IMG/VR virus record: IMGVR_UViG_2537561946_000006
From: a virus
Lineage: Duplodnaviria; Heunggongvirae; Uroviricota; Caudoviricetes
Length of the DNA stretch: 64,000 nucleotides
Strand: one strand, 5' to 3'
This document shows, in pieces, positions 9,001-15,000 of the stretch. Made by a program: the position numbers. The number at the start of each line of letters is the position of its first letter. Within the stretch, counting starts at the first letter, position 1.

Positions 9001-12000
9001 CTACTGGCGACGTCGTGGCAGCACATATTTTGTATCAAAAGCCGGTGAGCGTTATCGCCGGGATGTGGCACTTATTGTTCGCCAGCAGCGGCTGAAATTA
9101 AACCTGTCCGGAAGGCTGGCGATAAAGATTATTGCCGAGCCACCGGATAAGCGCCGCCGTGACCTGGACAATATTCTGAAAGCGCCGCTGGATGCGCTGA
9201 CGCATGCGGGGGTGCTAATGGACGATGAGCAGTTTGATGAAATCAATATTGTACGTGGTCAGCCAGTATCTGGTGGACGGCTGGGTGTGAAGATTTACAA
9301 AATTGAGAGTGAGTGAGCGTAAATATGATATATCCGGAAATTACAGGCAAAAGCGGCGAACATTTACGCCTGAACACGCTGGAAGCAGTCTGGATCCAGG
9401 GGAAATTACGGATGTGGGGGCGGTGGTCGTATATCGGTGGGGGTAAATCCGGAAATATGTTTAACCGGTTACTGGTTTCGAAAAAGCTGACGAAAACAGC
9501 AGTTAATGAGGTTTTACGCAGCATGAAGAAATCCGGGCTGGAAAAACCGGAACTTGAGGCATTTTTTCGGGATATGACCAGAGGGAAGCAGAAGAGCTGG
9601 TTGTCACATTGTACAGACACAGAGGCGTTGATTATTGATCGCGTTATCAGTGAGGTGCTTGGGGAATATCCCGGGCTAATCAATATTCTCCGGCAAAGGT
9701 ACGAAGGACGGGGAATGAGTAAGAGAAAAATGGCAGAATGTTTAAATCGTACTCACCCGGAATGGTGTTTCAGCACATGTGAGAAACGTATTGCAGGTTG
9801 GTTAGCCGTGGCTGAACACATGCTTTATGTACCTATGCACGATTCATTTCGATAAAAAAAGCTTGCTTTTTTACGCAGAAACAGCTTGAATTCCTGTAAG
9901 CTTCGCAAAGCTGTATCGCGAGGCGAAATGCAAGTTTTTTCGCACAAGGAAGCCACCGGAAGGTGGTTTTTTTGTGTCCGTAATATACAGCAGCGCAATA
10001 AATTCGCTGGTGGTTATTAATACCGTTCTTTCAGGTTGCTGGCTTTTTCGACAAGAGTTATTGGTGTGTCACGTTAACCGGAAAAGGGAAAAAGACATGC
10101 TGAAACAGCAGGATATGACAGAAACCGCCAGAGTGGTGTTTAATGAATTAAGCGTTACCGACCCGGCGACAGTCGGGGAGATTGCGCAGAATACTTACCT
10201 TTCACGCGAACGCTGCCAGTTAATACTGACCCAGCTGGTTATGGCGGGTCTGGCAGACTATCAGTTTGGTTGTTACAGACGCCTTCAGTCCTGAAGGCTT
10301 TTTTATTTGTGGTAAATGGGCGGCTGGTGGGTGTAAGGGGCACCCACCAGCCATCTGCTCATGCGTTGGGTTCACAAGCAAACCTCAGGCCCACTGCTTT
10401 GCGCAAAAGCAGAATGAGCCTATCAGAGACAGGCTTAATGATCCATGCTTAATACTGTAAAAATATCCAGTTGTGAGTTAATCAACGCCGACTGCCTGGA
10501 ATTTATGCGGTCGTTACCCGAAAATTCTGTTGACCTGATAGTCACGGACCCGCCGTACTTCAAAGTGAAACCCGAGGGCTGGGATAACCAGTGGGCGGGT
10601 GATGAAGATTACCTGAAGTGGCTGGACCAGTGTCTTGCGCAGTTCTGGCGGGTGCTGAAACCTGCCGGAAGTCTTTACCTGTTCTGTGGCCATCGTCTGG
10701 CATCTGACACCGAAATCATGATGCGTGAGCGGTTTAACGTGCTGAACCATATCATCTGGGCAAAGCCGTCCGGACGCTGGAACGGGTGCAACAAGGAAAG
10801 CCTGCGGGCGTATTTCCCCGCCACAGAGCGCATTCTGTTCGCAGAGCATTATCAGGGGCCGTATCGTCCGAAAGATGCCGGGTATGAGGCGAAGGGTAGG
10901 GCACTGAAACAGCATGTGATGGCCCCGCTGATTGCTTACTTTCGTGATGCGCGCGCTGTCCTGGGGATAACGGCAAAACAGATTGCAGATGCCACAGGAA
11001 AGAAAAACATGGTGTCGCACTGGTTCAGTGCCGGTCAGTGGCAGCTGCCGAACGAAAGCGATTATCTGAAATTACAGGCACTGTTTGCCCGGGTGGCAGA
11101 AGAGAAGCATCAGCGGGGTGAACTGGAAAAGCCCCACCACCAGCTGGTGGATACGTATGCCTCTCTGAACCGACAGTATGCGGAGCTGCAGAGTGAATAT
11201 AAGCATCTGCGGCGGTATTTTGGTGTGACGGCGCAGGTGCCGTACACGGATGTGTGGACACATAAACCGGTGCAGTTCTATCCCGGGAAACATCCGTGCG
11301 AAAAACCGGCAGAAATGCTGCAGCAGATAATCAGCGCAAGCAGTCGTCCGGGTGACCTGGTTGCAGATTTTTTTATGGGCTCAGGTTCAACGGTAAAAGC
11401 GGCACTGGCGCTCGGGCGTCGTGCAATTGGCGTTGAGCTGGAGACTGAACGTTTTGAGCAGACAGTCAGGGAAGTTCAGGATTTAATCGTTTGAAACGGA
11501 TGAGATTGCAGAATTAATTTCGCACCATTATTATTCTGGTCCCGGCCCTTTAGCTCAGTGGTGAGAGCGAGCGACTCATAATCGCCAGGTCGCTGGTTCA
11601 AATCCAGCAAGGGCCACCATCACATACCGCCATTAGCTTATCAGGAAGAGCAGACGACACCATAACAGGGTTGTTGGTGCGGGGGCGGGTCCCCGATGGC
11701 GGTCCATTATCGGTATTCTGCGTTGTTAGCTCAGCCGGACAGAGCAATTGCCTTCTAAGCAATCGGTCAGTGGTTCGACTCCACTACAACGCGCCACACT
11801 TATTTTCCAGGCTCGCTTCGGCGGGCCTTTTTTGTATCTGCGCCACGCCCGGTGCATATCAACCACAGAGCCTTTCGGGGGTGAGCTTACGGAGTGGTCA
11901 GTGTGACTTTCTCTGTGGGCAGATCGCTCCCGGGCGTTGGCTCACCCACCCAAAGGAACGTCACGATGTTTGGTATTTTTGGTAAAAAAAGCCCGCAGAG

Positions 12001-15000
12001 CGGCAACGGAAATTAAAAAGTTTGAAAAACGCGATCTGGCACAGGTGGTGATTAACGCCGCATACCTGGTGGCCTGTGCAGATGGTGAATGTGAGGCTTC
12101 CTAGAAAGCGAAGATCGAACAGGTACTGCGTAATCAGCCTGCGCTGTCCGCGTTTACGTCAGAAATTAATGCGATTAGCGCAACCATTATCGGTCAGCTG
12201 GATACGAACTTTAAAATTGGTCGTCGTGCGGCGTTACGTGAGATCGAGGATGTGAAACACGATACGCGTGAAGCGGAAGATGTGCTGGATGTGGCGGTGG
12301 CCATTGCGGAGGCAGACGGCGAAATTGAGCCGGAAGAGCGCAAGGTGCTGGAAGAGATTGCCGGTGTTCTGGGTCTTCGTCTGGAGAATCACCTGTGACG
12401 GTAAAACTGCGCCTGACTGTGGCTGCACTCCTGCTGTTTCTGGTGGTGATGGTGGATTTCACCAGCAGAATCATGTCGGTGCTGGCGGATGGGGTGCTGG
12501 TCTGCGGCATTGTGGTATTGCTGTGGCCGGTGATAAAAAGAAACAGCCTGCATAATGCTTGATTTTTTTGTTTGCTGTTTATTAAAAACACTTCTGCATG
12601 GTGAATCCCCCTGTGCGGAGGGGCAATCAGCGAGTAGGTATATGGGATAATCGCGGATTCAGGTGCTGGTACTGAATTCACCGGGAGGCACCCGGCACCA
12701 TGCTTTGCCACAAAAGTGTTATTTCTGTTTTTCTCAAACTATCATCGTTATCCCTTTATTTCCGGCTGCGCATGGCGCGGCCTTTTTTTTACGACCAGCC
12801 ACTGGCAGATGGTCATCCTGTGATTTGATTCCGGTTCCGGCTTTTTAACTCTGTTCCTGTACACGGGAGAAATTCGATGTCGATTAAACATTATGATGTT
12901 GTCAGGGCGGCGTCGCCGTCAGACCTTGCGGAAAAGCTGACACACAAACTGAAAGAGGGCTGGCAGCCGTTTGGTAGTCCGGTGGCCATAACCCCTTATA
13001 CCCTGATGCAGGCGATTGCAGCAGAAGGTGATGTGGTGGTCAGTGGTGCAACTGAGCCGGATTGGTACTACGTCATCGTACTGGCCGGGCAGTCCAATGC
13101 AATGGCTTACGGGGAAGGGCTTCCGCTTCCGGATTCATACGATGCTCCGGATCCGCGCATTAAACAGCTGGCGCGCCGCAGTACAGTTACGCCGGGTGGG
13201 GCTGCCTGCAGATATAACGATATTATTCCGGCCGACCACTGCCTGCATGATGTGCAGGATATGAGTACGCTGAATCATCCGAAGGCAGACCTGAGCAAAG
13301 GGCAGTACGGCTGTGTCGGCCAGGGCTTACATATTGCCAAAAAACTGCTTCCGTATATCCCGAATAACGCGGGGATCCTGCTGGTACCATGCTGTCGTGG
13401 TGGTTCTGCATTCACCCAGGGCGCTGAGGGGACATTCAGTGCGGACACGGGGGCCAGCCAGGATTCGGCACGCTGGGGTGTGGGTAAACCGTTATATCAG
13501 GACCTGATTGCGCGCACTAAAGCTGCATTACAGAAGAACCCGAAAAATGTGTTGCTGGCGGTGTGCTGGATGCAGGGAGAGTTTGACATGAGCGCCGCCA
13601 CCCACGCACAGCAACCTGCGCTGTTTACAGCCATGCTGACACAGTTTCGTGCTGACCTCTCCGTGTTTAACGCGCAGTGCCATGGTGGCAGTGCTGCAGA
13701 TGTGCCGTGGATTTGTGGTGACACGACGTATTACTGGAAAAATACATACGCTACCCAGTACGACACCGTGTACGGCGGGTATAAAAACAGGGAGAGTGAG
13801 GGCGTTTATTTTGTGCCCTTCATGACAGACGGTAACGGCGTCAATACCGCCACTAACGCGCCGGCAGAAGATCCGGATATTCCGGCATCAGGATATTACG
13901 GTGCGGCATCGAGAACGAATGGAAACCAGGTATCATCAAACCGCCCGACACATTTCAGTTCATGGGCGCGCAGGAGCATTATTCCGGATCGTCTGGCAAC
14001 CGCTATTCTGAACGCAGCCGGGCGCACCTCAGCCTTCATCAGTGGTAAGGCACCGGAAATCAAACCCTCGCCCGGCGGCAACACGCCATCGGGTCCGTCT
14101 GCAGATACGTCCGTTCGCACAATCTCCCTGCTGCCGGCAGCCGGAGAGGCTGCTGCGCAGGGCTGGAGCATTAAGGATGGCGGAATTCAGTTGTCAGATG
14201 GTGTATTTAAGATCACCAAGCAGAGCAATAAAACCTGGTCCCTGACGCATCCGGTGGATGACGCAATTACCCTGCTGACACAGGGCGGCAGACTGACCTG
14301 TAAGTTCCGCCTGTCAGGCGCACTGACCAACAATCAGTTCGGGCTGGGGATTTATCTGTATACGGATGCTCCCGTTCCTGATGGTGTGGCGATGACGGGT
14401 ACCGGTAATCCGTTCCTGATGTCGTACTTCACTCAGACCACTGACGGCAGAGTGAATCTGATGCATCACAGGAAAGCCGGAAACACGAAGCTGGGGGAGT
14501 TCGGCGATTACGGTAACGACTGGCAGACGCTGGAGCTGGTGTTCACCGCCGGCAGTGCCACGGTTACTCCGAAACTGAATGGAGTGGCTGGCCCGGCATT
14601 CCAGGTTATAAAAGACAGTCTGACACTGGGACTGAATGCGCTGACGCTGACGGATGTTACAAAAAATGCAGCGTATGGCGTTGAGATAGAAAGTCTGGTG
14701 CTGGAGATAAATGCACCGGCAGCATAATAAAAAAAGAGCCAGCGACTGACCTGAAAGAAGACGCTGGCTAAAAGGCCTTATATGTTTGTAGAGACTTATT
14801 TTTCACAGACAGCAATGATGCCTGTCAATATATTATCAATATGCGGATTGTTTCAGTTACAGATGCTTTATTAAGGAAAAAAACAGCCAGCACTGACTTT
14901 CGGTGGAGAGGTGCTGGCTCAGAAGGATAGTTGGATTTCACATGATACTTATGCCTGGCGGTATATTTTCTGACAGACAGTGACGGGTGTTGTCAAGATA

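What the first reader, a model, noticed from the sequence alone, without database searches (positions are those of the whole stretch)
11966..12562. TerB-like gene inactivated twice, still coupled to a small membrane ORF
From ATG 11966 the frame stops after 16 codons. Shifting by one base at the A7 run (11984-11990) restores a ~140-codon TerB-like ORF broken only by TAG at 12102. A 55-codon hydrophobic ORF starts at a GTG overlapping the stop. The homopolymer lesion could be a phase-variable switch or plain decay. The two-gene module has no function I recognise.
Basis: seen in the sequence. Interest (0 to 1): 0.45.

Follow-up and report, generated by a model that had tools for sequence, protein, structure and literature searches.

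The report
Decayed phage tciA gene, intact tciB
This is a broken copy of a known phage gene pair (tciA/tciB of phage P1) in the late region of an E. coli lambdoid prophage; both lesions are real, inherited and widespread, and they look like ordinary gene decay rather than a switch.

Summary
ATG 11966 opens a frame that stops after 16 codons. The A7 run (11984-11990) has one A more than the A6 of in-frame relatives. TAG 12102 replaces a conserved Glu46 codon. A 55-codon, two-helix membrane ORF starts at a GTG (12395) that overlaps the stop.

The pair has a known identity. It is tciA (TerB family, PF05099) plus tciB (DUF3927), named in phage P1 and found in many phages. Here it occupies the cargo slot between the tRNA genes and the sialate esterase and lysis genes of a lambdoid prophage.

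Both lesions are inherited alleles, not artefacts. Among 5,426 complete E. coli genomes, the A7 head is found exactly in 549 records and the TAG segment in 147. RefSeq already marks this allele as a pseudogene ("internal stop"). It hides the frameshift by starting at a TTG 4 nt after the true ATG.

Only A6 and A7 occur in intact copies, each tied to a flanking haplotype; A8 was never seen. Variants private to A7 alleles are 7 nonsynonymous to 1 synonymous. Variants private to in-frame alleles are 9 to 64.

Verdict: plain decay of a redundant multi-copy prophage gene, not phase variation. tciB may still be made. Low interest.

The parts
11954..11957 (+). Shine-Dalgarno core AGGA. It lies 8 nt upstream of the ancestral ATG 11966 and 12 nt upstream of the TTG 11970 that RefSeq uses.
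   Evidence: Read directly from the sequence. The same sequence precedes the in-frame ATG in JLK-2012, Evi and O157 copies.
11966..12398 (+). tciA pseudogene (TerB family). The ancestral ATG is at 11966. The reading frame shifts by +1 at the A run and is then cut by TAG. The original stop is TGA 12396-12398.
   Evidence: Translations. Pfam TerB E 6e-14, phrog_632 E 2e-68, PDB 2JXU TerB E 6e-8. RefSeq flags the identical allele as a pseudogene, 'internal stop'.
11966..12016 (+). Residual ATG-frame ORF: 16 codons (MFGIFGKKSPQSGNGN) plus TAA.
11984..11990 (+). A7 homopolymer, a +1 insertion relative to the A6 of in-frame alleles (lesion 1).
   Evidence: Alignment. IMG/VR sample: A6 45, A7 48. E. 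coli genomes: A7 exact in 549 records, A6 in 112, A8 in 0.
12102..12104 (+). TAG nonsense codon replacing GAG (Glu46). Glu46 is a conserved Glu of the first acidic ADGExxxxE motif (lesion 2).
   Evidence: It aligns with a Glu of solved TerB 2JXU. The 91-nt segment carrying TAG is found exactly in 147 records.
12383..12386 (+). GGAG, 8 nt upstream of the tciB GTG. This is a possible independent ribosome-binding site for tciB.
   Evidence: Read directly from the sequence. Its function is inferred.
12395..12562 (+). tciB: an intact 55-codon DUF3927 two-helix membrane protein. Its GTG overlaps the tciA stop (GTGA).
   Evidence: Pfam DUF3927 E 3e-17, phrog_1470 E 6e-30, hydropathy. Identical to RefSeq WP_000216653.1. 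Intact in all 32 A7+TAG alleles sampled.

Best explanation
The locus is a decayed copy of the phage tciA-tciB module. It lies in the late-operon cargo slot of a lambdoid prophage. The gene order is Q-like gene, DNA methylase, tRNA-Ile2, tRNA-Arg, tciA', tciB, STnc100-type sRNA, sialate esterase, lysis genes.

Two independent point lesions disable tciA:
- a +1 A insertion in codons 7-8 (A6 to A7), which puts the conserved, Shine-Dalgarno-served ATG out of frame;
- a G-to-T change that turns the conserved Glu46 codon into TAG.

Neither lesion arose in this genome. Both are old alleles carried by many EHEC-type prophages and reshuffled among them by recombination. Such genomes hold several paralogous copies of the module, so each single copy is under weak selection and drifts to a pseudogene.

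What can be made from this copy (inferred):
- No full-length TciA.
- At most a 16-residue peptide from the ATG.
- Possibly a 44-residue fragment from the weak TTG.
- tciB is intact and has its own GGAG 8 nt upstream, so it may still be translated on the Q-antiterminated late transcript. It has lost translational coupling to tciA.

How intact relatives probably work (inferred from homology and context, never tested):
- TciA is a soluble or amphitropic TerB-fold protein with two acidic ligand-binding motifs.
- It is made in coupled stoichiometry with the TciB membrane hairpin during lytic growth.
- The pair probably acts at the inner membrane of the infected cell, for example against superinfecting phage or pore-forming colicins, as proposed for TerB in ter operons and in TerB-containing defence systems.
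For: Shown:
- Family identity, and homologs labelled tciA/tciB in phage records.
- In-frame relatives have A6 or an interrupted run, and GAG at codon 46.
- The N-terminal M-x-G-x-F/L-(G)-K-K motif encoded from the ATG is conserved down to about 40%-identity homologs in P1, Pantoea, Serratia, Pectobacterium, Pseudomonas and Oceanisphaera.
- A7 is found exactly in 549 records, the TAG segment in 147, A6 in 112 and A8 in 0, among 5,426 complete E. coli genomes.
- All 48 sampled A7 alleles share one N-terminal haplotype.
- TAG occurs on three head types: A7, A6 and K-head.
- Variants private to A7 alleles are 1 synonymous to 7 nonsynonymous. Variants private to in-frame alleles are 64 to 9. Fisher p = 2e-5.
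- Two-thirds of A7 alleles also carry TAG.
- The 721-nt query has a median of 6 places per genome that has any. Broken and in-frame copies coexist in the same genomes.
- All four free-phage records that cover the gene are in frame.
- RefSeq calls this allele a pseudogene.
- The tciA-tciB adjacency, with overlapping or abutting stop and start, is conserved across genera.
- The module lies in lytic-phase operons: lambdoid late regions and the P1 ban operon. TciA-family homologs also occur in strictly lytic and jumbo phages.
Against: - The substitution test is weaker against a fairer control. Rare in-frame variants are 8 synonymous to 5 nonsynonymous, giving p = 0.067.
- S61Y, counted as private to A7, also occurs in one A6 allele (L007).
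- A7 alleles without TAG keep a 142-codon ORF open from TTG 11970 with no further truncating lesion in 16 sampled copies. Residual function of the A7-only allele is therefore not excluded.
- Nothing here measures expression.
- The proposed role of the intact module rests only on homology and gene context.
Confidence: 0.85

Rival explanations
1. The A7 state is not inactivating. Translation starts at TTG 11970, as RefSeq annotates (WP_001303509.1), and gives a working 142-residue TciA. The window copy would then carry only one real lesion, the TAG.
For: - The ORF from the TTG is open in A7+GAG alleles.
- 16 of 48 sampled A7 alleles have no further truncating lesion.
- The frameshifted N-terminus (M)VFLVKK keeps a hydrophobic-then-KK character.
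- A7 is the commonest allele of this head type in complete genomes.
Against: - The conserved N-terminal motif and the ATG start are lost.
- The TTG is a weak start. It lies 12 nt from the Shine-Dalgarno core and inside the path of ribosomes that start at the well-placed ATG.
- Variants private to A7+GAG alleles are 4 nonsynonymous to 1 synonymous.
- No A7 allele is seen in free-phage records.
Confidence: 0.1
2. The A run is a phase-variable (contingency) tract that switches tciA on and off by slipped-strand mispairing.
For: - A homopolymer sits in the first codons of the gene.
- Both A6 and A7 exist in nature.
- The closest A6 and A7 alleles differ by only 2 substitutions in 492 nt.
- An A5 tract exists in two remnants.
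Against: - Tract length follows the flanking haplotype rather than varying among identical sequences. No A6/A7 pair is otherwise identical.
- A8 is absent from 615 matching records. Nothing longer than A7 occurs among 96 IMG/VR contigs.
- Seven A is short for a contingency tract (general knowledge).
- A7 alleles show relaxed constraint.
- The TAG makes switching pointless in this copy.
Confidence: 0.03
3. Recoding restores full-length TciA. This would need +1 ribosomal frameshifting or transcriptional slippage at the A run, together with read-through of TAG.
For: A runs are slippery for tRNA-Lys and for RNA polymerase (general knowledge). The downstream frame is still open.
Against: - No suppressor tRNA is present in the 64-kb window. 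The only tRNAs are CAT and TCT anticodons.
- A -1 slip gives a frame that soon stops.
- The +1 slip that is needed has no hungry or stop codon to drive it (AGC follows).
- In-frame relatives show that the unshifted, GAG-bearing form is the ancestral design.
- Two independent recoding events would be needed.
Confidence: 0.01
4. One or both lesions are sequencing or assembly errors in this window.
For: Homopolymer length is a typical error class for some sequencing platforms.
Against: The identical A7 segment is found in 549 independent complete-genome records and the TAG segment in 147. The whole 721-nt region is 100% identical in strain 14EC007 and in several IMG/VR contigs.
Confidence: 0.01

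Closest known systems
Phage P1 tciA-tciB-tciC, in the ban operon. [quoted passage not shown]
   Same: - A TerB-family protein of about 141-143 aa with the same N-terminal M-x-G-I-x-K-K-K motif. The restored TciA is 40% identical to P1 TciA over its full length.
- It is followed at once by a DUF3927 two-helix protein of 54-55 aa with abutting or overlapping stop and start.
- tRNA genes lie next to the module in both.
- The module is not essential for lytic growth in P1.
   Different: - There is no tciC counterpart. The 31-codon ORF after tciB is unrelated and lies inside an sRNA gene.
- The setting is a lambdoid late operon rather than the P1 C1-controlled ban operon.
- tciA is a pseudogene here.
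Intact lambdoid alleles: TciA/TciB of Escherichia phage JLK-2012, phage Evi and PPyecE_EH1910
   Same: - The same slot, between Q or the tRNAs and the yjhS/nanS-p esterase or the lysis genes.
- DNA identity of 89-95%, and 96-97% protein identity to the restored sequence.
   Different: Those copies have an in-frame ATG (A6 or AAAAAGAAAA) and GAG at codon 46.
TerB of the terZABCDE tellurite, phage and colicin resistance operon (solved structure 2JXU, Klebsiella)
   Same: The same fold family by sequence (E 6e-8 over residues 15-137), including the acidic D-G...E motifs.
   Different: This is a stand-alone TerB with a small membrane partner. No terZ, A, C, D or E genes are nearby. One paper on a lone phage terB suspects it has no tellurite-resistance activity without the other ter genes.
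TerB-containing anti-phage systems (Dionysus DinB, Bunzi BnzA, Shango SngA)
   Same: A TerB domain paired with membrane-active partners. The proposed role is membrane surveillance.
   Different: TciA matches no model of a named defence system in PADLOC. The only hit is a weak one to candidate PDC-S48 (E 0.006), and TciB has no hit. The partner genes differ, and the module is carried by phages rather than by defence islands.

Membership tests
TerB family (Pfam PF05099) | Profile match above the curated cut-off | tested here: met
   52.7 bits against a cut-off of 24.4, E 6e-14, on the restored 143-aa translation.
TerB family (Pfam PF05099) | Sequence similarity to a solved TerB structure, including the paired acidic motifs | tested here: met
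   2JXU_A E 6e-8 over residues 15-137. The motifs ADGECEASE and ADGEIEPEE are visible in the translation.
TerB family (Pfam PF05099) | Uninterrupted coding sequence (a functional member) | tested here: not met
   The ATG is out of frame at the A7 run, and TAG replaces codon 46. RefSeq marks the allele as a pseudogene.
P1-type tciA-tciB(-tciC) module | A stand-alone TerB protein of about 140 aa with the N-terminal M-x-G-x-F/L-K-K motif | tested here: met
   The restored sequence begins MFGIFGKK and P1 TciA begins MLGILKKK. The motif is shared by homologs in seven genera.
P1-type tciA-tciB(-tciC) module | A DUF3927 two-helix protein immediately downstream, with start and stop overlapping or abutting | tested here: met
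   GTGA overlap at 12395-12398. DUF3927 at 62.6 bits against a cut-off of 25. Two hydrophobic segments. The same arrangement holds in 15 of 18 distant loci examined.
P1-type tciA-tciB(-tciC) module | A third small membrane gene, tciC | tested here: not met
   P1 TciC is MGFWDFADKHPIVLVV... The ORF after tciB here (12555-12650) is unrelated and lies within an STnc100 match.
P1-type tciA-tciB(-tciC) module | [quoted passage not shown] | not testable with these tools
   The phenotype is assigned by homology only in the literature found. No experiment was located.
ter operon (terZABCDE) | Neighbouring terZ/A/C/D/E genes | tested here: not met
   The neighbours are a methylase, tRNAs, tciB, an sRNA and an esterase.
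Phase-variable (contingency) locus | Tract length varies among otherwise identical or near-identical sequences and spans several lengths | tested here: not met
   Only A6 and A7 occur in full-length copies, each linked to a haplotype. A8 is found in 0 of 615 matching records. No A6/A7 pair is otherwise identical; the minimum is 2 differences.
Known TerB-containing defence systems (Shango, Bunzi and other PADLOC models) | Match to the system's protein models | tested here: not met
   Only a weak hit to candidate PDC-S48, E 0.0058 at 13.7 bits. TciB has none.

The most novel reading that the evidence does not exclude
Loss of TciA with retention of TciB (and the adjacent STnc100-type sRNA) could be favoured rather than neutral in EHEC-type prophages. 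The gene has been hit by several independent lesions: the A7 frameshift, TAG46, an internal deletion, and an A5 truncation. Phages 434 and 2B8 carry tciB without tciA, so TciB may act alone or with another partner. Alternatively, the A7 allele that RefSeq treats as intact in hundreds of genomes may give a deliberately low, TTG- or slippage-dependent dose of TciA.
Probability: 0.07. Interest if true: 0.4.

Novelty: already known. Interest (0 to 1): 0.1.

Why it matters
It matters little for biology. This is one more decaying cargo gene in a multi-prophage E. coli genome, and public annotation already flags it.

Two practical points follow.

1. The RefSeq protein WP_001303509.1 is annotated as an intact TerB family protein in O157:H7 and related genomes. 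It is most likely the frameshifted allele rescued by a TTG start, so counts of "intact" tciA in EHEC are inflated.
2. PHROG family 3920 appears to be the orphan C-terminal fragment of broken tciA alleles, not a gene family of its own.

The real open question is what the widespread phage TciA-TciB pair does, because no experiment was found. Intact alleles (JLK-2012, Evi) would be the ones to test, not this copy.

Tried and rejected
- **Suppressor tRNA for TAG read-through.** The window has only tRNA(CAT) and tRNA-Arg(TCT). Rejected.
- **-1 frameshifting at the A run.** It leads into a frame that soon stops. Rejected.
- **A tciC homolog after tciB.** The 31-codon ORF is unrelated to P1 TciC and lies inside an STnc100 match. 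Rejected.
- **A private sigma-70 promoter for the module.** None was found on the + strand between the two flanking terminator-like hairpins. The scan is crude, so this stays open.
- **Membership of known defence systems through PADLOC.** No convincing hit.
- **The P1 genome paper (PMC523184).** It is not held in the library, so the original reasoning behind the tci name could not be read.
- **A first nearest-neighbour count.** It gave at least 9 differences between A7 and in-frame alleles. It had excluded the closest A6 allele for technical reasons. The corrected minimum is 2.
- **tciB substitution counts between allele classes.** Indel variants of the C-terminus contaminated them, so they were not used.
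- **Not attempted, because the family assignment was already secure:** structure prediction, fold search and the large protein-database searches.
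Full report
**Observation**

The region was read and translated in all three forward frames.
- ATG 11966 is preceded by an AGGA core at 11954-11957, 8 nt upstream. It opens MFGIFGKKSPQSGNGN and meets TAA at 12014-12016.
- The run 11984-11990 is seven A.
- The frame that starts at 11967 reads KKARRAATEIKKFEKRDLAQVVINAAYLVACADGECEAS, then TAG at 12102-12104. It continues without interruption to TGA at 12396-12398.
- GTG 12395 overlaps that stop (GTGA). It opens a 55-codon ORF ending at 12562, with GGAG 8 nt upstream.

**Identity**

I removed one A and replaced TAG by GAG to restore a 143-residue protein.
- It matches Pfam TerB (E 6e-14, 52.7 bits against a cut-off of 24.4).
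- It matches PHROG 632 over its full length (E 2e-68).
- It matches the solved Klebsiella TerB 2JXU (E 6e-8).

The small ORF matches DUF3927 (E 3e-17) and PHROG 1470, "TciB-like". It has two hydrophobic segments separated by DFTSR.

Phage records label the homologs tciA and tciB (JLK-2012, phage 434). The name comes from phage P1, where tciA, tciB and tciC lie in the ban operon next to tRNA genes. The restored protein is 40% identical to P1 TciA over its full length. P1 TciA begins MLGILKKK, against MFGIFGKK here.

[quoted passage not shown] The genes are non-essential in a P1 CRISPRi screen.

**Context**

The window is a lambdoid prophage (ORF map). Around the finding the order is:
- DNA methylase, 10445-11494
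- tRNA(CAT) at 11544-11619, annotated as tRNA-Ile in RefSeq
- tRNA-Arg(TCT), 11720-11796
- a terminator-like hairpin, 11809-11828
- tciA' and tciB
- an STnc100 sRNA match, 12567-12739
- a second terminator-like hairpin, 12764-12782
- the SASA/nanS-p esterase, 12877-14727
- the lysis genes

In Stx phages this slot holds cargo such as stx.

**Comparison with relatives**

In-frame copies exist at 89-95% DNA identity in phages Evi, PPyecE_EH1910 and JLK-2012. They read ATG TTT GGT ATT TTT GGT AAA AAA GCC (A6) or ...TTC AAA AAG AAA ACC, and all have GAG at codon 46. The window therefore carries a +1 insertion in the run and a G-to-T nonsense change at a Glu that also aligns with a Glu of 2JXU.

The N-terminal motif encoded from the ATG is conserved in homologs from Pantoea, Pseudescherichia, Franconibacter, Dryocola, Serratia, Pectobacterium, Pseudomonas, Oceanisphaera and P1. 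In 15 of the 18 loci examined, a DUF3927-like hairpin ORF starts within a few bases of the TciA stop. The pair is thus a conserved, probably translationally coupled module. TciA-family proteins occur in 131 phage records, including N4-like, jumbo and P1-like phages.

**Frequency of the lesions**

Among 5,426 complete E. coli genomes, the 721-nt region matches in 841 genomes, with a median of 6 places per genome.

| Query | Exact matches |
|---|---|
| 95-nt segment with A7 | 549 records |
| 41-nt head with A6 | 112 records |
| Same head with A8 | 0 of 615 matching records |
| 91-nt segment with TAG | 147 records |

Many of the TAG records are O157:H7.

A frame-neutral pattern search of IMG/VR returned 96 contigs: A6 45, A7 48 and A5 2. 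Both A5 loci are remnants in which tciA is cut after about codon 17.

Among the 48 A7 alleles, 32 have TAG and 16 have GAG. TAG also occurs on A6 and on the AAAAAGAAAA head. That pattern points to recombination among prophage copies.

The window's exact allele recurs in strain 14EC007 and in five IMG/VR contigs. The lesions are therefore neither sequencing errors nor private to this genome.

**Annotation**

RefSeq annotates the window-identical allele as a pseudogene with an internal stop. It annotates the A7-only allele as an intact 142-residue protein (WP_001303509.1) that starts at TTG 11970. The frameshift is thus hidden by the gene caller.

**Decay or switch?**

All A7 alleles share one N-terminal haplotype (AATEIKK). 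Most A6 alleles carry another. The closest A6 allele (L007) differs from an O157 A7 allele by 2 substitutions in 492 nt, and no pair differs by the tract alone.

Variant sites private to A7 alleles are 1 synonymous and 7 nonsynonymous. Sites private to in-frame alleles are 64 synonymous and 9 nonsynonymous, giving Fisher p = 2e-5. Two cautions apply.
- Against the fairer control of rare in-frame variants (8 synonymous, 5 nonsynonymous), p is 0.067.
- One "private" change, S61Y, is also present in L007.

The direction is nevertheless clear and fits loss of constraint. The following points agree:
- the loss of the conserved N-terminus;
- the poor placement of the TTG, 12 nt from the Shine-Dalgarno core;
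- the TAG on two-thirds of A7 alleles;
- the absence of A7 from the four free-phage records that cover the gene.

I conclude that A7 is an inherited frameshift mutation, not a switch. In this copy the TAG makes the question moot.

Redundancy probably explains the tolerance. At least three IMG genomes carry a broken copy and an in-frame copy on different viral contigs.

**tciB**

The ORF is intact here and in all 32 sampled A7+TAG alleles. The target is small and divergence is low, so this is weak evidence of selection. A W44* allele also exists.

With TAG about 290 nt upstream, translational coupling is lost, and expression would depend on the GGAG at 12383-12386 (inference). Phages 434 and 2B8 carry tciB without tciA, so TciB may not strictly need TciA.

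**Mechanism of the intact module (inferred)**

The module lies in lytic-phase transcription units: the lambdoid late operon and the P1 ban operon. TciA-family genes also occur in strictly lytic phages. This points to a role during lytic growth rather than lysogenic conversion.

TerB domains are proposed to be ligand-sensing, amphitropic and membrane-associated. They occur in the ter operon and in the defence systems Dionysus, Bunzi and Shango together with membrane effectors. The most likely reading is a TciA-TciB complex at the inner membrane that protects or monitors the infected cell against superinfecting phage or pore-forming colicins.

TciA is not a member of those defence families by PADLOC, and no ter genes are nearby.

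**Verdict**

The interpretation as a doubly inactivated gene is supported, and the phase-variation alternative is not. The module is a known one, and the allele is already annotated as a pseudogene in public genomes. Interest is low.

Noticed in passing
window 12567-12739 (+): Strong Rfam match to the prophage sRNA STnc100 (RF02076, 101.5 bits against a gathering score of 47), directly after tciB and upstream of the sialate esterase. A 2026 preprint groups STnc100 with PasD sRNAs and places them at this position in Stx-type prophages. The 31-codon ORF 12555-12650 lies inside the match.
   Followed up: partly
window 11809-11828 and 12764-12782 (+): Two terminator-like GC hairpins with T runs bracket the tciA'-tciB-sRNA block. 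One follows tRNA-Arg and the other precedes the esterase gene. No sigma-70-like promoter was found on the + strand between them (crude scan).
   Followed up: partly
window 11970-12398; L002 3071-3499: RefSeq protein WP_001303509.1 ('tellurite resistance TerB family protein', 142 aa, O157:H7 and others) starts at a TTG 4 nt after the conserved ATG. It appears to be the A7 frameshift allele rescued by the gene caller, so it is probably not an intact gene.
   Followed up: yes
window 12252-12398 (+): PHROG family 3920 (a 48-aa profile, 'unknown function') matches exactly TciA residues 96-143, that is, the GTG-initiated ORF left behind in broken alleles. The family looks like an annotation by-product of tciA pseudogenes.
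   Followed up: partly
L141 11070-11098; L181 3693-3721 (- strand of the locus): Two IMG/VR contigs have an A5 tract. In both, tciA is cut after about codon 17 and is followed by unrelated AT-rich DNA. This is a third, independent way in which the gene has been destroyed.
   Followed up: partly
L006 (phage 434) 2967-3125; phage 2B8: These lambdoid phages carry a tciB (DUF3927) homolog without tciA. It is preceded by a 247-aa putative membrane protein and followed by another small membrane protein.
   Followed up: no
window 11544-11619; L001 4501-5612: ARAGORN calls the first tRNA Met(CAT), whereas RefSeq annotates the homologous gene as tRNA-Ile (the Ile2 type, as next to tciC in P1). Strain 14EC007 has a frameshifted IS421 between the two tRNA genes, which the window lacks.
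   Followed up: no
L207 9819-11675 (O157:H7 PV15-279): In this O157:H7 prophage, which carries the same tciA allele, the neighbouring esterase-type gene is also annotated as frameshifted. In the window it is intact (616 aa). This suggests wider decay of the late-region cargo in some lineages.
   Followed up: no
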